Of a stretch of DNA of 42,197 nt, positions 25,523-41,839 are shown piece after piece. Position numbers and translations under genes: made by a program. Numbering within the stretch: position 1 is the first letter of the stretch; every line of letters begins with the position of its first letter. This DNA comes from a virus (Duplodnaviria > Caudoviricetes), in IMG/VR virus record IMGVR_UViG_3300026196_000015, positions 1 through 42,197 of that record. The stretch is one strand, 5' to 3'. The notes beneath the pieces are model-generated. The model saw nothing but the letters and a program-made list of their open reading frames with translations. It did not search any database and had not been told where the DNA came from.

Positions 25523-26119
25523 TTAGTTACACTTTCCCAAAATCGGGCAATTCTCTTGTATATTGTTTTTATTGTCTTTCCCGAATTCTTCCTCGATTCT
25601 CAATAGCGACTCTTCCGTCAATTCCGTAGTCAGTTCTCTTGCGATCAGCTTCATCTCTTCCAGCGGTCGATCATACAGGTGTAAGTCCAGTACTCTTGGT
25701 ATTAATTGCTCAGGGATCCGGTATCTTATTAACCTGGCTGGATTACCAGCAACGATGGCATAAGGCGGAACGTCTTTTGTGACTACTGATCCGGCACCAA
25801 TTACGGCCCCTTCTCCTATGTGGACATTTGGAACAATTGTTGCGTTTCGACCTGTCCAGCAGCCATCACCAATCTTAACCATCTTCTTTCTTGCGCCACC
25901 GACTTCCTCTCCCCCGATTCTTCTTGCCATGCCTACTGACATGATTAATGTGTCTGTTCTGTGATTTCCGGTTATCACCAATAAACCCATGGCTATTGCA
26001 CACCATCTACCGATAATTGCTCCGTGGCCTATTTCGCATCCCTTGGTTATGTAGGTGCATTCCCCTATTTCTACACCATTTCCAACGAAGCTTTCCGGAT
26101 GCTTTCTTATTTTCCCCAT
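25523..26119 (-). CDS. Hexapeptide-repeat O-acetyltransferase (CatB/Vat-related)
   Basis: IGDGCWTG, IGEGAVIGAGSVVTKDVPPYAIVAGNPARLIRYR. Confidence 0.85.
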   Translation of the reverse strand: MGKIRKHPESFVGNGVEIGECTYITKGCEIGHGAIIGRWCAIAMGLLVITGNHRTDTLIMSVGMARRIGGEEVGGARKKMVKIGDGCWTGRNATIVPNVHIGEGAVIGAGSVVTKDVPPYAIVAGNPARLIRYRIPEQLIPRVLDLHLYDRPLEEMKLIARELTTELTEESLLRIEEEFGKDNKNNIQENCPILGKCN

Positions 26120-33884: not shown

Positions 33885-33888
33885 CCGA

Positions 33889-33951
33889 TTCCCTGTCCCC
33901 CAGGGAACCCCCGTGAGGTTTTAACTTTGCGATTCGCCTTGCGGGGGTTTT
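33889..33951 (+). terminator. Tandem hairpins / putative terminator after HTH gene
   Basis: TTCCCTG/CAGGGAA, then AACCCCCGTGAGG/CCTTGCGGGGGTT followed by T's. Confidence 0.55.
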
Positions 33952-33965
33952 AACTGAGCTTAGAT

Positions 33966-34504: not shown

Positions 34505-35225
34505 ACCTTATTCAATCCCAGAAGCGATGCTGTCCTTGAGTTGCGATTACGATAACAAAAAACAAGCGAGTATTGCCGGTTATTCTAAGCTCTGGCGTTG
34601 GAACAGGAACAAGGTGAGAAAGTTCTTAAATGATGTCGGGGCAGAGATAAAAAGAGAAGAATCAACCGATAAAATTCAAAACCAGAAGGGACAGATACAG
34701 GGACAGATAAGGGACAGATCAGGGACAGATAATGGACAGATACGATTCATATGGGACAAGGACTTACAGGCGTCAAAGGACAGATCAGGGACAGATAAGG
34801 GACAGATCAGGGACAGATCGGAGGACAGTACTATATATCCTATTAAACCTAAACCAAAAACTAATAACAAATACGTCGAAGATTGCCTTGAAATGAAAAT
34901 AGCAAAATACTTTTACCAAGTCCTGCTTAAATCAGATCCAAAAACAAAAACACCAAATTGGCAATCTTGGTGTGATGACATACGAAAGATACTTACTATC
35001 GACAAAAGGACAAAAGAAGAAATCAGGAAGGTAATCGATTATGCGCATGACCAAAACAACGCCACCGATAAATTTTCCTGGATACCGAACCTTAGAAGTC
35101 CAAAAAAACTAAGGGATCACCTACCTAAAATCTTATTGAGTATTGAAACGGTTCAAAAGCAGAAACAAACCGGATCATCCCGGGCAAGAAACTTAATCGA
35201 AGAAAGTAAACAATACCTTGGCTGA
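34443..35225 (+). CDS. Replication initiator (lambda O-like architecture)
   Basis: N-terminal HTH (LWRWNRNKVRKFL), central iteron-encoded repeats, C-terminal W..NLRSPKKLR; followed by DnaB. Confidence 0.8.
   Translation: MKEGNWVPLDKRLVKFLPEDRPYSIPEAMLSLSCDYDNKKQASIAGYSKLWRWNRNKVRKFLNDVGAEIKREESTDKIQNQKGQIQGQIRDRSGTDNGQIRFIWDKDLQASKDRSGTDKGQIRDRSEDSTIYPIKPKPKTNNKYVEDCLEMKIAKYFYQVLLKSDPKTKTPNWQSWCDDIRKILTIDKRTKEEIRKVIDYAHDQNNATDKFSWIPNLRSPKKLRDHLPKILLSIETVQKQKQTGSSRARNLIEESKQYLG
34689..34829. repeat. Iteron array / replication origin
   Basis: Nine exact GGACAGAT copies (34689, 34701, 34712, 34723, 34734, 34778, 34789, 34800, 34811) plus GGACAGT at 34823, followed by an AT-rich tract. Confidence 0.85.
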
Positions 35226-35227
35226 TT

Positions 35228-36568
35228 ATGGAACTTACAATACCTCACGATTTCGAAGCAGAACAAGCCTTGCTGGGAGCTATTATCATTAATAACAAAC
35301 TAATGGACGAGATAGCCAGCATCTTGAATCCTGACCATTTCTTCGCGGAAAGCCACAGACAAATTTACGGATCGATGCTTTATTTATGGGAAGACAAACA
35401 ACCCCTGGATGAAATATCGATCGGAGACAAATTAAAACAGAAAGAGAAGCTTGAGGAGATAGGAGGGTATCTTTACCTCAGTGATTTGATTGCAGCTGTC
35501 CCATCATCCGGTAATTTTATCTATTACGCCAAAGTCATTGAAGAGAAGGCCATCCTTAGATCATTGATTAGCATTTGTTCAGATACCGGGACAAGAGCAA
35601 GAGATCCGAAGGAAAATCTACAAAAACTTCTTTCCCGGGTAGAGAGTAGAATTTCAGAACTTGCTCAATCGAGATCTGAAAAGCAATTCGTTCACATCAT
35701 AGACGCAGTCAAAGAAAATATCGCTGAACTTGAATACTTAACGACAAACAATATTCAAAACGTCGGGCTTCCTACCGGATTTAGAGACCTTGACAGATTC
35801 ATGTCCGGTCTTCTCCCGGGTGATCTCATCGTAATTGCTGCCAGGCCATCAATGGGGAAAACTGCATTAGCCCTTAACATTGCTGCTTATATTGCCTCAA
35901 CAATATCAAAAGAAGTAGTCACGATCCATTCCCGGGAAATGGCTTTTAAAAAAGTTTCGAGGAGAATTCTTGCTTCCCTTGGGTCAATCAATACTCATTT
36001 CCTTAAAACGGGTCTACCCGGGACGGACAATTCCGAAATGTTATGGGATAAATTGGGGAGAGCAACTGATATCTTGAAAGAATCGAATATCCTGATAAAC
36101 GATAAAACTTCGTCAGTCATTCAAGCTTGTAACCAAGTGAAAGCGCAGAACAGAAAACAGAGAGTCTGCCTGAGTATATTCGATTACATGCAGTTGATGG
36201 ACTACGAGCAGGCCAGGAACAGAGAACAGGAGATAGCTGGAATATCCAGGAGACTTAAAGGGCTGGCAACTGATTTGAATATCCCGGTAATCGCTCTCTC
36301 TCAATTGAATAGATCGCTGGAGTCAAGGAACGACAAGCATCCGCAGCTTTCTGACTTGAGGGAATCTGGATCGATCGAGCAAGACGCCGACATAATACTA
36401 TTCCTTTACCGGGAAGATTATTACCACAAGGGAGATGACGAATACCAGCCCACAGGAATTGTTGACGTTGAGATTGGTAAACATCGAGAAGGCCCGACTG
36501 GTATGATTAATCTTGTTTTTGATGGGAAGTACACGAAGTTTAACAACTTATCAATAAGCGGTAAATGA
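35228..36568 (+). CDS. dnaB: Replicative DNA helicase
   Basis: PHDFEAEQALLG, AARPSMGKT, DYMQLM, LSQLNR, SDLRESGSIEQDAD. Confidence 0.95.
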   Translation: MELTIPHDFEAEQALLGAIIINNKLMDEIASILNPDHFFAESHRQIYGSMLYLWEDKQPLDEISIGDKLKQKEKLEEIGGYLYLSDLIAAVPSSGNFIYYAKVIEEKAILRSLISICSDTGTRARDPKENLQKLLSRVESRISELAQSRSEKQFVHIIDAVKENIAELEYLTTNNIQNVGLPTGFRDLDRFMSGLLPGDLIVIAARPSMGKTALALNIAAYIASTISKEVVTIHSREMAFKKVSRRILASLGSINTHFLKTGLPGTDNSEMLWDKLGRATDILKESNILINDKTSSVIQACNQVKAQNRKQRVCLSIFDYMQLMDYEQARNREQEIAGISRRLKGLATDLNIPVIALSQLNRSLESRNDKHPQLSDLRESGSIEQDADIILFLYREDYYHKGDDEYQPTGIVDVEIGKHREGPTGMINLVFDGKYTKFNNLSISGK

Positions 36569-37370: not shown

Positions 37371-37586
37371 ATGGAGAATGAGATGGAAGAAAACTTGATT
37401 GAGGGATTACAGCGAGAAATCAAGCGAAACAAAATGATTCTTGGATATTACGAAGAGATCCCGGAGGGTGCCTTTGGTGCGTCAATGATTAAGATGACTA
37501 TTAGCAGAGGTGAAAAAGCGTTGGTTTCCGATGATGTGGTAGAGATGTTACGTGCCTTCAGGGATTTGGAACATACAAAAGAATAA
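37371..37586 (+). CDS. Hypothetical protein
   Basis: 71 aa; YEEIPEGAFGA...DVVEML. Confidence 0.55.
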   Translation: MENEMEENLIEGLQREIKRNKMILGYYEEIPEGAFGASMIKMTISRGEKALVSDDVVEMLRAFRDLEHTKE

Positions 37587-37609
37587 ACTATACACAATTG
37601 GAGGATCAG

Positions 37610-37801
37610 ATGGCTAGGGAAAAGTTAATTTATAAGGAATGTTATAAAAAACCATATTTGCAATCTAGTGCCGCTCATTTAAAAAACCTTACTACTGAAT
37701 GCAGTGATGTTAGGATAATTGAAAGAGGAATTATAGAAATTGGGGGCGTTGAATATATCTTTAACACTTTACGTGTGTTAAATAGACGGCTTGACCAATA
37801 A
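37610..37801 (+). CDS. Hypothetical protein
   Basis: GGAGGA RBS within repeat; start ATG 37610. Confidence 0.5.
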   Translation: MAREKLIYKECYKKPYLQSSAAHLKNLTTECSDVRIIERGIIEIGGVEYIFNTLRVLNRRLDQ

Positions 37802-37835
37802 CTGTAGTTATAAACTATACACAAATGGAGGGTTC

Positions 37836-38000
37836 ATGAATTTTAAACAACTTTATATTCTTTTCGTTTTTACAGTAGTTATGCCATTTTGCGGATTTTT
37901 ACTTACGACTGAAAAAGTCGGAAATTGGGCATTTCTACTTATTGCTATGCAAATCCCGTGGTTTATCAAATCCGTGATTTTTAAGCTAAAAGAAGAATAA
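37836..38000 (+). CDS. Small 2-TM membrane protein
   Basis: GGAGG RBS in repeat; start ATG 37836. Confidence 0.5.
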   Translation: MNFKQLYILFVFTVVMPFCGFLLTTEKVGNWAFLLIAMQIPWFIKSVIFKLKEE

Positions 38001-38026
38001 CTGTAGTATAAACTATACACACAACT

Positions 38027-38488
38027 ATGAAAATATTAGATCCCTGCTGCGGCAGTAAAATGATGTGGTTCGATAAAGAAAACAAAGAAACTGTTTATGG
38101 GGATATAAGGGATGAAAGGCATATCCTTTGTGATGGCCGCAGTCTGAATATAAATCCAGACGTTCTGATTGATTTTACAAAGTTGCCATATGACAATGAA
38201 CAATTTCACTTAATAGTATTCGACCCTCCTCATTTGAAGAACGTTGGCAAAACATCTTGGATGGCAAAAAAGTTTGGAGTATTGGGAAGAGACTGGAAGG
38301 ATGATTTAAGAAGCGGATTTAGTGAGTGCTGGAGGGTGCTTAAGATAAACGGGACTTTGATTTTCAAATGGAATGAGACTCAAATTAAACTTGTCCAATT
38401 GCGGTCGCTTTTCCCTGCTCCGCCTCTTTTTGGACATACTACAACGAATAATCTTAAGACGCATTGGATTGTTTTTTATAAACCTTAA
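38027..38488 (+). CDS. SAM-dependent methyltransferase (amino-MTase motif; probably DNA)
   Basis: ILDPCCGS (motif I), VFDPPH (motif IV), RVLKINGTLIFKW. Confidence 0.8.
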   Translation: MKILDPCCGSKMMWFDKENKETVYGDIRDERHILCDGRSLNINPDVLIDFTKLPYDNEQFHLIVFDPPHLKNVGKTSWMAKKFGVLGRDWKDDLRSGFSECWRVLKINGTLIFKWNETQIKLVQLRSLFPAPPLFGHTTTNNLKTHWIVFYKP

Positions 38489-38539
38489 GCATAACTGTGG
38501 TTATAATTCAACTTATAACCAACAACCACTAGGCATAAA

Positions 38540-38716
38540 ATGAAGAAATTAAAAATTATATTGTTAGAAGTTGGGATATTTTTAGCAGGGATGATTACTG
38601 CTGGGAATTTAGTGTTTATTATTGGTTATAACATTGAATATCACGCTTCGTGGGTTAAGGTCGCTTTTTGTTGTTCTCTTGCCATATTTTTTGGAATTAT
38701 CAACCATCAAGATTAA
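38540..38716 (+). CDS. Small 2-TM membrane protein (58 aa; not in ORF track)
   Basis: Hand translation MKKLKIILLEVGIFLAG...FFGIINHQD; bounded by junction repeats. Confidence 0.5.
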   Translation: MKKLKIILLEVGIFLAGMITAGNLVFIIGYNIEYHASWVKVAFCCSLAIFFGIINHQD

Positions 38717-38738
38717 GCACACAACCATTGGAGGATCT

Positions 38739-38942
38739 ATGCCTGGGAAAATTGTTCCAGTTGATCATAGTTTGATAGAATATGCCAAGGAAATAAAATG
38801 TTCTGGATGCGGAGAATTACCAAAGATTTATCCGGAGGATAATACTGGGCCGTTTACAGTTGAATGCCCCCATTGTGGTTATGGTACTCTGTCATGGGCT
38901 TACCAACGTGAAGCCTGGGAGAACTGGAAAAACATTAACTGA
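38739..38942 (+). CDS. Zinc-finger protein (Lar-like pattern)
   Basis: CSGC...VECPHCG...EAWENW; RBS in repeat; start ATG 38739. Confidence 0.55.
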   Translation: MPGKIVPVDHSLIEYAKEIKCSGCGELPKIYPEDNTGPFTVECPHCGYGTLSWAYQREAWENWKNIN

Positions 38943-38950
38943 CAACAAAT

Positions 38951-39161
38951 GGAGCGGTAAAAATATAAACAAGCAGACAGGAAAGCACATCTTGATCGCA
39001 GGTTCGGACCTAGTATCGGGGAATAGATCGTTAAAGATGTTCTGTAATATCATGCTAGGATGATAAGTGAAGCCGGTTCAATTCCGGTGTTTATATGCAG
39101 GATGTGGATTGAACGCAAGTTGCCTAGGCAGAAAGACGATGAATCAATCCTGACCGCTCCG
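38951..39161 (+). ncRNA. Candidate structured non-coding RNA with tRNA-like T-arm
   Basis: Nested helices: GGAGCGGT/ACCGCTCC, ATATAAAC/GTTTATAT, ACATCTT/AAGATGT, TATCAT/ATGATA, GCCGG-TTCAATT-CCGGT, CAGGAT/ATCCTG. Confidence 0.6.
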
Positions 39162-39188
39162 CCCAACACAACCATTGGAGGATCTAAG

Positions 39189-39410
39189 ATGTCTGAAAAA
39201 GTTTGGAAATACTATCCTGACACCTGTCAGCTATGTTGTGGTGATTTGGAAGTTTACACAGATCCAGAAACAGAAGAGGGATGGGTAAACGATGGTGATA
39301 AGTTTCGATGCAAAAACTGTAAATGCTCTGGTCGTGCATATGTGCATGATGTTGATTGTGTCGTAATGTGGATGACAACCGATGAAAACGGTAATGATTT
39401 AAATCACTAA
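39189..39410 (+). CDS. Zinc-finger protein
   Basis: CQLC...CKNC; exactly bracketed by the 27-bp direct repeat; start ATG 39189. Confidence 0.6.
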   Translation: MSEKVWKYYPDTCQLCCGDLEVYTDPETEEGWVNDGDKFRCKNCKCSGRAYVHDVDCVVMWMTTDENGNDLNH

Positions 39411-39432
39411 CACAACCATTGGAGGATCTAAG

Positions 39433-39615
39433 ATGCACAAAATTGACGAATTATTAAAAGACAAGGAAATTTCGCAAGCATGCATTGATGGGAAATGGGT
39501 CGTAGCGAGACCGGAAAATTTTAAGAAAAAGTACACAACAATCAGATTCCGTTTGCGTGAGGCATGGAATGTTTTCACTGGTAAGGCTGAAACACTTTAT
39601 TATTATAAACAGTAA
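39433..39615 (+). CDS. Hypothetical protein (60 aa)
   Basis: GKWVVARPE...RLREAWNVFTGKA; RBS in repeat. Confidence 0.6.
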   Translation: MHKIDELLKDKEISQACIDGKWVVARPENFKKKYTTIRFRLREAWNVFTGKAETLYYYKQ

Positions 39616-39654
39616 ATAATTACAGTCACTAACATAACAAACGGAGCGGTGGCG

Positions 39655-40149
39655 ATGAAAAGAAGGTGGACTGAGGAAGAAGAAACATATCTAAAAGCAA
39701 ACTATGATAAAATGTTTCTTTCAGTGCTTGCCGAAAACATAGGCAGAAGTTATAGAGCTGTAAGAATTAAATGTATTAGGATGGGGTTGAAACTGTCCGA
39801 TGAAGAATACAGGAAAAGAATAATTCATTCTAATATGTTAAGGGATTATAATAACCAGTCTGGTAAAAACAACAATAATTGGAAAGGCGGTATTTCTATA
39901 AACAAATCTGAATACAGAATACTCCTTGATAAAAAATCACCTCAAAAAACAAAATGCAGAAGAAAGACATCCCAATTAGTAAGATCAGGAAAAATAAAAA
40001 AGAAGCCATGCATAATATGCAGTGAAATAAAAGTACATGCTCACCATGAAGATTACAATGACCCTTATAAAATTTTATGGCTGTGCCGTATCCACCATGA
40101 AGATATTCACAGAGGGAATCTTCATATTAGGTCAGATCTTAGAAATTAA
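39655..40149 (+). CDS. HNH endonuclease with N-terminal Myb-like HTH
   Basis: RRWTEEEETYL...GRSYRAV, GKNNNNWKGG, PCIIC...HAHHEDY..P..ILWLCRIHH..IH. Confidence 0.8.
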   Translation: MKRRWTEEEETYLKANYDKMFLSVLAENIGRSYRAVRIKCIRMGLKLSDEEYRKRIIHSNMLRDYNNQSGKNNNNWKGGISINKSEYRILLDKKSPQKTKCRRKTSQLVRSGKIKKKPCIICSEIKVHAHHEDYNDPYKILWLCRIHHEDIHRGNLHIRSDLRN

Positions 40150-40178
40150 ACTGGCCGCTCCATCAAACAAAGGAAAAT

Positions 40179-40632: not shown

Positions 40633-40793
40633 ACTCTTGGACTAAAGTTATAATAGGAATTTGGGCCTACGTCATAATCCAGACCATTCTGTTTGCCTTT
40701 ATTTTTATCCAGATGTCCAGGTACAGCGAACAGCTTTCAACACAGATCTGGAATGCCCAACAACAACTCTCTAATCAAATAGCGGAGGAATAA
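40629..40793 (+). CDS. Small single-TM protein (54 aa; not in ORF track)
   Basis: MNSWTKVIIGIWAYVIIQTILFAFIFIQM...; TAATG coupling to sqdB. Confidence 0.55.
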   Translation: MNSWTKVIIGIWAYVIIQTILFAFIFIQMSRYSEQLSTQIWNAQQQLSNQIAEE

Positions 40794-41839
40794 TGAGAAT
40801 TTTAATTCTTGGGGTAGACGGTTATCTTGGGTACCACACACAGAATTACATGAGAGATAAAGGCCATGAAGTCTACGGAATTGACTCGTTCATCAAGCGA
40901 GAAATCGGGGAGATGCCACTTGCCCAAAACATAATGCCTGGTTCAGATGCAAATTTCAGATGGATGTCCACTTTGGATTATGATGATCTTTGCGGTTTTA
41001 TAAGCCAGACACAACCTGAAGCGATTATTCATTACGCAGAGATACCATCAGCCCCTTTTTCCATGGAAAACGTTTTTAACGCCAGGAAAACGCAAGAAAA
41101 CAATATCTCTGGAACGCTCAATCTCTTATTTGCAATTAAGAAGTTCTGCCCGGATACTCATTTGATCAAGCTCGCATCGATGGGAGAATATGGTAGCCCT
41201 GGTTGTGATATACCTGAAGGATATATTGAAGACGGCCCTATGAAAGGTCTTCCTTTCCCGAAGTCTCCAAGCTCATTCTACCATCTCTCAAAAGTCCATG
41301 ACTCAAACAATATCATATTCGCCTGTAAAACATGGGGATTGAGAGCAACAGATCTCAACCAGGGGATCGTTTACGGTGGGAATGCCAAGTTCCAATATGA
41401 TTCTGTTTGGGGTACAGCCCTTAACAGGTTTATTGTTCAGGCTGTTTTGAGAGAGCCAATCACTGTTTACGGATCCGGAAATCAGCGCAGAGCTTTTCTG
41501 AATATCAAAGACACTCTTCAATGCGTTGAACTGGCCTGTCTTAATCCGGCTGAATTTGGGAAAATGAGAGTGTTTAACCAATTTACCCAGACATTCCAGA
41601 TAAATGAACTGGCTGAGATGGTATCTTTCAGATATGGCGTTGAAATAGAACATCTCGAAAATCCAAGAATTGAATCGGAAATATCCGACCTTGATGTAAA
41701 AAACACTTCCTTGATCAATCTGGGTCTGAAGCCTCACTTATTGGATGAATTTGTTCTTGATGAAATCTTCGAATTTGTGCTTGCCAATAAAAAAGACATC
41801 AGAAAAGAATTGCTGAAACCGAATATCAACTGGAGATAA
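40793..41839 (+). CDS. sqdB: UDP-sulfoquinovose synthase (SqdB/SQD1/Agl3 family extended SDR)
   Basis: LGVDGYLG, SAPFSM, NNISGTLNLLFAI, MGEYG, FYHLSKVHDS, WGLRATDLNQGIVYG, GTALNRF, RVFNQFT, NPRIE, LGLKPH: family-specific motifs beyond a generic epimerase. Confidence 0.88.
   Translation: MRILILGVDGYLGYHTQNYMRDKGHEVYGIDSFIKREIGEMPLAQNIMPGSDANFRWMSTLDYDDLCGFISQTQPEAIIHYAEIPSAPFSMENVFNARKTQENNISGTLNLLFAIKKFCPDTHLIKLASMGEYGSPGCDIPEGYIEDGPMKGLPFPKSPSSFYHLSKVHDSNNIIFACKTWGLRATDLNQGIVYGGNAKFQYDSVWGTALNRFIVQAVLREPITVYGSGNQRRAFLNIKDTLQCVELACLNPAEFGKMRVFNQFTQTFQINELAEMVSFRYGVEIEHLENPRIESEISDLDVKNTSLINLGLKPHLLDEFVLDEIFEFVLANKKDIRKELLKPNINWR

What the first reader, a model, noticed from the sequence alone, without database searches (positions are those of the whole stretch)
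38951..39161. Nested tRNA-like structured RNA that is not a canonical tRNA
Seen: outer stem GGAGCGGT(38951-58)/ACCGCTCC(39153-60) stacked on CAGGAT/ATCCTG. Inside is an 8-bp stem ATATAAAC(38963-70)/GTTTATAT(39089-96) whose 3' strand directly follows a textbook T-arm GCCGG-TTCAATT-CCGGT(39072-88), the acceptor/T-arm geometry of tRNA. A ~70-nt branched hairpin replaces the D-arm, TATCAT/ATGATA sits in the anticodon-arm position, and there is an AAC-GCAA-GTT GNRA hairpin. Inference: a tRNA-mimic ncRNA (e.g. decoy for anticodon nucleases, RNase P/Z-processed RNA, Y-RNA-like) or a degenerate tRNA composite.
Basis: partly seen in the sequence, partly recalled or inferred. Interest (0 to 1): 0.72.

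Follow-up and report, generated by a model that had tools for sequence, protein, structure and literature searches.

The report
Self-locking tRNA mimic in small phage
A 42-kb soil phage with no ordinary tRNA genes carries a tRNA-shaped sequence with no usable anticodon, whose extra arm is predicted to pair with the loop where the anticodon should be, the same design as phage T4's still unexplained RNA C; no relative was found, so this fold and its likely job as a counter-defence decoy are untested.

Summary
ARAGORN and Rfam find nothing. The tRNA frame is far beyond chance: canonical T-arm, 7-bp acceptor (8 bp with the -1:73 pair), U73-GCA, and G10, C11, A14 and GG in register (0 such cases in 12,086 random genome-equivalents). 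New here: a 54-nt arm sits inside the D-loop, and its tip (CCUAGU) is complementary to the 6-nt loop at the anticodon position (GCUAGG). The T4 RNA C family shows the same tip-to-loop lock, with compensatory changes across 13 sequences. The element is not a sequence member of that family (its covariance model gives no hit). Against: no homologue was found, so there is no covariation; no RNA data; nested folding prefers another interior by about 3 kcal/mol; the GNRA hairpin is disfavoured. The outer stem is a cassette border shared with a nearby HNH endonuclease gene. Best reading: an RNase P-released, non-decoding, self-locked tRNA mimic that likely interferes with a tRNA-directed host defence. 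Verdict: real feature, new variant of the RNA C kind, function untested.

The parts
38951..38958 (+). 5' strand of the outer stem; also the GGAG of the phage's repeated cassette leader (ACAACAAATGGAG-type)
   Evidence: same leader before the HNH gene at 39637-39650 (D11)
38959..38963 (+). A-rich 5' leader; A38963 is position -1 and pairs with U73; predicted RNase P cut at 38963/38964 (or one base upstream)
   Evidence: sequence; cut site inferred
38964..38970 (+). acceptor stem, 5' strand (positions 1-7)
38971..38986 (+). A8 A9, D-stem 5' strand G10 C11 A12 G13, A14, and the GG (38980-81) that would dock on the T-loop; D-loop continues AAAGC
   Evidence: in register; 0 in 12,086 random genome-equivalents; model aligns to real tRNAs in this register
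38987..39040 (+). 54-nt arm inserted in the D-loop: helix 38987-93/39034-40, GATC/GATC 38994-97/39026-29, 5x5 internal loop, tip stem 39003-07/39016-20
   Evidence: predicted, about 2.9 kcal/mol above the nested minimum
39008..39015 (+). 8-nt tip loop ACCTAGTA; CCTAGT (39009-14) is complementary to the anticodon-position loop
39041..39045 (+). D-stem 3' strand TCTGT
39048..39065 (+). 6-bp hairpin in the anticodon-arm position with 6-nt loop GCTAGG (39054-59); no U33, not a decoding loop
39066..39071 (+). 6-nt variable linker
   Evidence: sequence
39072..39088 (+). canonical T-arm (G53, TTCAATT, C61); the only one with a stem in the genome
39089..39099 (+). acceptor 3' strand (39089-95), U73 (39096) and GCA in the CCA position (39097-99)
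   Evidence: RNA C family ends 7 nt + U + ACA/UCA/CCA
39098..39152 (+). 3' trailer domain: CAGGAT/ATCCTG, GATT/AATC and a hairpin 39120-31 whose loop carries a third CTAG (palindrome TGCCTAGGCA 39121-30)
   Evidence: not HDV/theta-like
39153..39160 (+). 3' strand of the outer stem; also complementary to the leader and Shine-Dalgarno of the HNH gene (39642-50)
39643..40161 (+). neighbouring HNH-type endonuclease cassette (ORF 39649-40149) bracketed by the same GGAGCGGT / GCCGCTCC pair; possibly linked, not shown
   Evidence: (phrog_2340 endonuclease, E 7e-17)

Best explanation
The gap holds a tRNA-framed sequence with no usable anticodon, predicted to fold so that an arm inserted in its D-loop pairs with its own anticodon-position loop; it is likely cut out of the phage's rightward transcript by host RNase P and 3' trimming, and likely acts as a stable, non-decoding tRNA mimic that ties up a tRNA-directed host defence protein. 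Shown by sequence and controls: the tRNA frame, the missing anticodon loop, the 6-bp complementarity, and the same lock with compensatory changes in T4-family RNA C. Inferred: transcription (no dedicated promoter stands out), the locked fold in this RNA, RNase P cleavage near 38963/38964, replacement of GCA by CCA, and the target (anticodon nucleases of the PrrC/RloC or PARIS kind, or another factor that reads the tRNA elbow). The lock would present an intact elbow and acceptor arm while hiding the loop that such nucleases cut and the ribosome reads. The outer stem and 3' domain are read as precursor scaffold and cassette border, not as part of the mature RNA.
For: T-arm + 7-bp acceptor + D-arm opening in register: 0 in 1.02 Gb of random sequence, 12,086 genome-equivalents, against 133 for T-arm + acceptor alone. 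Whole element z -2.9 to -3.6, + strand only. Second-largest gene-free gap of the genome, 246 nt. All 8 acceptor pairs are Watson-Crick though AT-rich, which decay would be unlikely to leave. An automatic test for a 6-bp loop-loop pairing within 3 kcal/mol of the minimum finds one in the element, in 9 of 9 RNA C sequences tested, in 0 of 2 T5 tRNA-like RNAs and in 37 of 400 shuffles of the interior, only 1 of 400 as stable in total. In 13 RNA C sequences the kissing helix is paired in all cells, with 2 of 6 pairs changed on both sides. Same 3' end pattern as RNA C, 7 nt + U73 + NCA. A single-sequence model of the element picks up ordinary tRNAs in register with the insert skipped. Type A RNase P RNA over the cut-off in 4 of 5 genomes of the likely host phylum; two full-length AAA_13 proteins in 1 of those 5 (that RloC/PrrC-type nucleases carry this domain is recalled). 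Phage tRNAs as counter to anticodon nucleases: PMC10264068 (abstract).
Against: No homologue in any search, so no covariation for this RNA. Nested folding favours the extended helix 39009-16/39052-59 (0.96) over the two arms (0.02, 0.04). The interior alone folds no better than shuffles without the kiss (62 of 400 as good), and the kiss test and the core-position test were designed after seeing the sequence. The RNA C model does not hit the element at E up to 10. U8, A21, U33 and C74 are missing; the acceptor has one G-C pair. The function of RNA C itself is unknown (PMC3014915, PMC9697503 passages), so the analogy gives a shape, not a role. The host is inferred only from a DnaB at about 53% identity.
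Confidence: 0.4

Rival explanations
1. Cis-acting processing and stability signal: the tRNA frame only recruits RNase P and 3' nucleases to cut the long rightward transcript; the outer stem and 3' domain then cap or hold the downstream message, and the released piece has no job.
For: Lies inside an operon of small-gene cassettes with no stand-out promoter (17 promoter-like sites against 18.3 in shuffles); the outer stem and 3' domain are the best-defined helices in local folds (0.96-1.0); the genome has no tRNA cluster.
Against: A processing signal needs only acceptor and T-arm; it does not explain a 54-nt insert with a tip complementary to the second loop, nor the match to the design of RNA C, which is annotated as a small stable RNA.
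Confidence: 0.2
2. Relic: a captured tRNA or tRNA-like gene with an insertion, now drifting without function.
For: Singleton; AT-rich acceptor; four invariant positions lost; removing the arm in silico gives only sub-threshold ARAGORN calls (0 of 130 at default, 3 at 95%, 26 at 90%, with mixed identities Tyr/Ser/Val).
Against: No parent among 166 distinct tRNAs in the loci held or in 88 SAR324 genomes; stems are intact rather than eroded; no integrase among the proteins scanned, so an attP fragment is unlikely, and the 5' half is present.
Confidence: 0.17
3. Conformational switch or multimer: three CTAG-containing loops exchange partners (tip, anticodon-position loop, 3' domain), and the 3' outer strand alternates between closing the element and masking the HNH gene's Shine-Dalgarno sequence.
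For: Three CTAG within 120 nt where the genome has 30 in 42 kb (local P about 1e-4, genome-wide about 0.1); pairings of 8, 5 and 5 bp between the three; in longer folds 39153-61 pairs with 39642-50 at 0.74-0.95; Shine-Dalgarno masking is known for T4 I-TevI (PMC3014915 passage).
Against: Two of the three CTAG are tied by complementarity; the long-range pairing spans 490 nt and two translated genes, where equilibrium folding is unreliable; no conservation data.
Confidence: 0.13
4. A real tRNA-framed RNA, but with the nested minimum-energy interior (short hairpin plus one long irregular arm) and no loop-loop lock.
For: Minimum-energy and centroid folds.
Against: That fold buries the GG and breaks the in-register D-stem; the program cannot score pseudoknots, and RNA C members also sit 0.2-2.9 kcal/mol from their kissing-ready fold.
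Confidence: 0.07
5. Chance structure in a spacer.
For: The scan covers about 250,000 windows; by energy against GC content the element is only the second-best of 200 tiles of this genome (z -2.3).
Against: 0 in 12,086 random genome-equivalents for the full frame; 246-nt gap in a dense region.
Confidence: 0.03

Closest known systems
Phage T4 RNA C (rnaC, species 1 RNA; NC_000866.4 70908-71046, 139 nt)
   Same: Similar size; 7-bp acceptor + U73 + NCA; canonical T-arm; one long arm of about 70 nt and one short hairpin with a 6-nt loop; 8-nt tip loop complementary over 6 bp to that loop; a homing endonuclease gene nearby (segB in T4).
   Different: No detectable sequence homology; lock sequence CCUAGU/GCUAGG instead of UUGACG/CGUCAA; keeps a canonical D-arm opening with the arm inside the D-loop; short stem 6 bp, not about 10; 6-nt, not 1-nt, linker to the T-arm; lies alone in a 42-kb podovirus without tRNA genes; nested in an outer stem with a 3' domain.
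Phage T5 tRNA-like stable RNAs RNA1 (144 nt) and RNA2 (125 nt), AY543070
   Same: tRNA frame with an enlarged arm, annotated as of unknown function; HNH genes nearby.
   Different: They keep a normal-sized D-arm and enlarge the anticodon arm; no 6-bp loop-loop pairing by the same test; not hit by the element's model at E up to 0.5.
Allo-tRNAs, SelC* and irregular soil tRNAs (PMC5389517)
   Same: Non-canonical tRNA-like genes from soil and phages, some inactive in translation.
   Different: Those have 8/4 or 9/3 acceptor branches, a long variable arm and real anticodons; this has a 5-bp T-stem and no anticodon loop.
Bacterial Y RNA YrlA (PMC4201824)
   Same: tRNA-mimic domain carried on an outer stem; found in phages.
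   Different: [quoted passage not shown]
tRNA plus theta ribozyme (PMC10879173)
   Same: A structured domain begins with G right after position 73.
   Different: No HDV-type double pseudoknot can be drawn from G39097; no Rfam hit.

Membership tests
Canonical tRNA | Acceptor stem stacked on a T-arm with G53-T54-T55-C56-R57-A58-C61 | tested here: met
Canonical tRNA | 7-nt anticodon loop with U33 on a 5-bp stem | tested here: not met
   6-nt loop GCTAGG on 6 bp (or 8 nt on 5 bp), no U33; ARAGORN 0 genes, also with introns allowed and at 90% threshold
Canonical tRNA | Match to the Rfam tRNA models | tested here: not met
   no Rfam match at E up to 10
T4 RNA C family | Hit by a covariance model of 13 Tevenvirinae RNA C sequences | tested here: not met
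   no match at the element at E up to 10, filters off; the model is narrow (76% mean column identity)
T4 RNA C family | Conserved motifs CGAGGA, GGCC, UUGRYG/CRYCAA | tested here: not met
   alignment A4 against the element's sequence
T4 RNA C family | Long arm whose tip pairs over 6 bp with the loop of the hairpin before the T-arm | tested here: inconclusive
   complementarity present and found by the same test as in 9 of 9 RNA C sequences, but 37 of 400 shuffles also pass and there is no covariation
T4 RNA C family | 7-bp acceptor followed by U73 and NCA | tested here: met
T4 RNA C family | Located in a tRNA gene cluster | tested here: not met
   no tRNA gene in the complete genome
T4 RNA C family | Accumulates as a small stable RNA | not testable with these tools
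   no RNA holder listed
tRNA-Sec / allo-tRNA | Long variable arm, extended acceptor branch, real anticodon | tested here: not met
   6-nt variable linker and no anticodon loop in the preferred reading; features from PMC5389517
YrlA Y RNA | Acceptor-like stem-loop between T and D stem-loops; Ro60 gene adjacent | tested here: not met
   arm order; no TROVE/Ro60 hit among 55 proteins in PHROGs and 37 in Pfam; features from PMC4201824
tmRNA | G3-U70 acceptor, tag reading frame, pseudoknots | tested here: not met
   ARAGORN tmRNA scan 0; position 3 is not G-U; 135-nt core
Theta (HDV-like) ribozyme | Nested double pseudoknot with G1 at the tRNA 3' end | tested here: not met
   loose descriptor: 5 hits, none starting at 39097; features from PMC10879173

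The most novel reading that the evidence does not exclude
An independently evolved member of a widespread class of phage 'self-locked' tRNA mimics, here carried as a stand-alone mobile cassette by a small phage that has no tRNA genes; the lock is an internal UAG-on-CUA (codon-on-anticodon-like) pairing that can be opened by a third CUAG loop in its own 3' domain or by another copy, making it a switchable or multimerising anti-defence RNA and a minimal system for finding out what T4 RNA C does.
Probability: 0.15. Interest if true: 0.85.

Novelty: new variant of a known kind. Interest (0 to 1): 0.55.

Why it matters
T4's RNA C has no known role in the papers read here (PMC3014915, PMC9697503, PMC12685909, passages). 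The loop-loop lock found in its family with compensatory changes gives a concrete structural hypothesis; my searches returned no paper describing it. A sequence-unrelated RNA with the same design in a small phage without a tRNA cluster would show that the design is selected for its own sake and not a by-product of tRNA operons, and would point to an RNA-based counter-defence. The weakness is that this copy is a singleton with no expression data.

Tried and rejected
Homologue searches, all negative for the element: blastn against phages and plasmids, no match; viral contigs patterns: T-arm+acceptor 0, outer stem+T-arm 2 loci, both unrelated, cassette leaders 30 and 5 loci, no nhmmer hit below E 6, own lock motif+T-arm 17 loci, none homologous by eye; metagenome contigs lock motif+T-arm 43 loci in 28 groups, only L395, the window's own record; 88 SAR324 genomes by DNA (3 matches of 18-36 nt, E 0.02-0.04) and by model R2 (0 of 88); 50 of 80 related phage records by R2 (0 of 50; the 30 others, mostly the shortest, were not searched; these relatives are only 36-41% identical in capsid protein and that scan covered 12 of 64 parts); DnaB scan 1 locus at 24%; earlier findings by place and sequence, nothing. 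Search for bridging RNA C relatives: 120 loci in 13 groups from 27 of 64 parts, one group of 6 was RNA C, none bridged. Sequencing runs: one DNA holder, possibly the source; no RNA holder listed. Fremin et al. candidate RNAs: two motifs absent from 6 supplementary files, 3 files could not be searched and may bear on novelty. Rejected readings: amber suppressor or recoded phage (no U33; 5 of 56 genes end in TAG and long late genes are open under table 11); attP tRNA fragment (six 15-nt T-arm matches in 5 of 88 SAR324 genomes are not in tRNAs); archaeal-type intron at standard positions and group I intron (insert too short, ARAGORN intron mode negative); theta ribozyme; type-II reading with long anticodon arm and variable arm (possible, about 3 kcal/mol worse than the D-stem version; same topology, not excluded). 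PADLOC scan of 27 proteins: one weak hit at E 0.009, ignored.

Full report
Setting. The window is a complete virus record with direct terminal repeats. Its capsid protein is about 38% identical to those of phiV10-like podoviruses, and PHROGs names terminase, head-tail adaptor, tail and internal virion proteins on the minus strand and recombination and replication genes on the plus strand. The one run that holds the DNA is a soil metagenome and may be its source. The closest DnaB proteins are about 53% identical; one of them leads to SAR324 genomes, so SAR324 is a weak guess at the host. The element fills most of a 246-nt gap (38943-39188), the second-largest in the genome, inside a run of small-gene cassettes that share an A-rich leader ending in GGAG. 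ARAGORN finds no tRNA or tmRNA in the genome; Rfam finds nothing at gathering level or, locally, at E up to 10.

The observation. The plus strand folds better than shuffles (z -2.87; z -3.6, 1 of 500), the minus strand does not; against GC content it is the second-best of 200 tiles. The T-arm is the only one with a stem in the genome, and with an 8-bp upstream partner it arose in 1 of 300 Markov genomes.

Anatomy. Numbered as a tRNA, 38964-70/39089-95 is a 7-bp acceptor, 39096 is U73 (pairing with A at -1, which gives the eighth pair) and 39097-99 read GCA where CCA would be. After A8 A9 come G10 C11 A12 G13, A14 and a GG at 38980-81; the D-stem closes with 39041-45. This opening in register, on top of T-arm and acceptor, occurred 0 times in 1.02 Gb of random sequence (12,086 genome-equivalents; T-arm plus acceptor alone 133 times; criteria chosen after seeing the element). 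U8, A21, U33 and C74 are absent. A 54-nt arm (38987-39040) sits in the D-loop after the GG. The hairpin in the anticodon position has a 6-nt loop with no U33, so it cannot decode. A model built from the element alone picks out ordinary tRNAs in this register with the insert skipped, at weak scores (15-27 bits). No parent tRNA stands out among 166 distinct tRNAs in the loci held, and removing the arm in silico yields no ARAGORN call at default threshold (0 of 130).

The lock. In the fold with both arms, the tip loop of the inserted arm (ACCUAGUA) holds CCUAGU, complementary to the anticodon-position loop GCUAGG. So the lock is plausible, not proven.

Comparison with T4 RNA C. T4 rnaC (annotated small stable RNA) folds as acceptor, long arm, short hairpin with a 6-nt loop, T-arm. 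I aligned 13 sequences: T4 and 12 divergent relatives picked from 752 and 773 blastn records; Pectobacterium phage PM2 was fetched and left out because its T-loop and lock look degenerate. The family covaries strongly (25 of 43 pairs changed on both sides) and its tip loop pairs with the short hairpin's loop in all 13, with two of six pairs changed on both sides (UUGACG/CGUCAA, UUGAUG/CAUCAA, UUGGCG/CGCCAA; these are few independent events among related phages). The same automatic test finds the lock in 9 of 9 RNA C sequences tried, in the element, and in neither T5 RNA1 nor RNA2; all nine RNA C ends read 7 nt + U + NCA, as does the element. But the RNA C model does not hit the element, its conserved motifs are absent, and the linkers and short-stem length differ. 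The element therefore works like RNA C in design, if the lock is real, and is not a member of the family. Other agents of this scan noted the same design in other phages; I saw those notes after the test, and they are unchecked leads, not evidence.

Homologues and expression. None found (details under Tried and rejected): eight viral scans, one metagenome scan that returned only the window's own record among 43 loci, 88 SAR324 genomes, 50 related phage records, phage and plasmid collections. Two closer phages exist, with capsid proteins 75% and 67% identical, but their DNA could not be fetched. Pattern scans need exact motifs, so diverged relatives would be missed.

Mechanism. No promoter stands out, so the RNA is likely co-transcribed with the rightward operon. 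The acceptor/T stack with an A-rich single-stranded leader is the usual RNase P substrate (established knowledge); type A RNase P RNA is present in 4 of 5 SAR324 genomes tested. Release and CCA addition would give an RNA of about 135 nt with a tRNA elbow and a hidden anticodon-position loop. The most economical job for such a molecule in a phage without tRNAs is to occupy a host protein that recognises tRNA shape, anticodon nucleases first (PMC10264068, abstract; PrrC recognition of anticodon loop and acceptor region, PMC3014915, passages; PARIS, PMC11464382, search listing only). I give this whole chain 0.40; that the gap encodes a selected tRNA-shaped RNA about 0.8; the lock about 0.55. Rivals: cis processing signal, relic, partner-switching RNA (three CTAG loops; the 3' outer strand can also mask the HNH Shine-Dalgarno in long folds), unlocked fold, chance.

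Literature seen. PMC5389517: parts 2 and 3 of 5 of the text. PMC9697503, PMC12685909, PMC3014915, PMC9897764, PMC4201824, PMC10690425, PMC10879173: passages. PMC7609411, PMC10264068: abstract and outline. Supplements of PMC10690425: 6 files searched, 3 not. Searches returned no description of this RNA or of the RNA C lock; the library lacks most subscription papers and the 1970s work on T4 species 1 RNA.

Verdict. A real tRNA-framed, anticodon-less element; new variant of the T4 RNA C kind; structure partly predicted, function untested. Interest 0.55.

Noticed in passing
L126:909-1047 (-) and L127-L138 (alignment A4): T4 RNA C family: 6-bp pairing between the tip of the long arm and the loop before the T-arm, paired in 13 of 13 sequences with compensatory changes; no paper describing it turned up in my searches.
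   Followed up: yes
window 39643-40161: HNH-type endonuclease gene bracketed by the same GGAGCGG...CCGCTCC pair as the RNA element; the 5' strand contains its Shine-Dalgarno sequence, and the two cassettes' borders cross-pair over 9-10 bp. Only one weak homologue among 13 candidates.
   Followed up: partly
window 37581-39640: Array of small-gene cassettes joined by repeated leaders (ACACAACCATTGGAGGATC x3, AACTATACACA x3, TAACTGT x3), suggesting modular gene exchange; 5 viral contigs matches to the leader looked like chance.
   Followed up: partly
L226, L229, L235 (around 1440-1590 on the matched strand): CCA-ended tRNA-like RNA missed by ARAGORN in three viral contigs: normal acceptor, D-arm and T-arm, with two extra arms carrying complementary CCTAGT / RCTAGG; the R varies between A and G. 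A different locked mimic, not a homologue by eye.
   Followed up: no
L224, L232 (around 1460-1600): tRNA frame with an insert of about 50 nt in the anticodon arm, not called by ARAGORN.
   Followed up: no
window 34687-34844: 11-bp tandem repeats (GGGACAGAT core) inside the replication initiator gene, likely the origin iterons.
   Followed up: no
window 40793-41839, 930-1652, 25523-26119: Nucleotide-sugar epimerase, sulfotransferase and hexapeptide acyltransferase genes, a likely surface- or DNA-modification set.
   Followed up: no
window 35228-36568: Phage DnaB is closest (about 53%) to a clade that includes SAR324 chromosomal DnaB; no integrase or repressor was named among the proteins scanned.
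   Followed up: partly
window 33885-33965: Small structured spacer with two inverted-repeat hairpins between genes, possibly a terminator or processing site.
   Followed up: no
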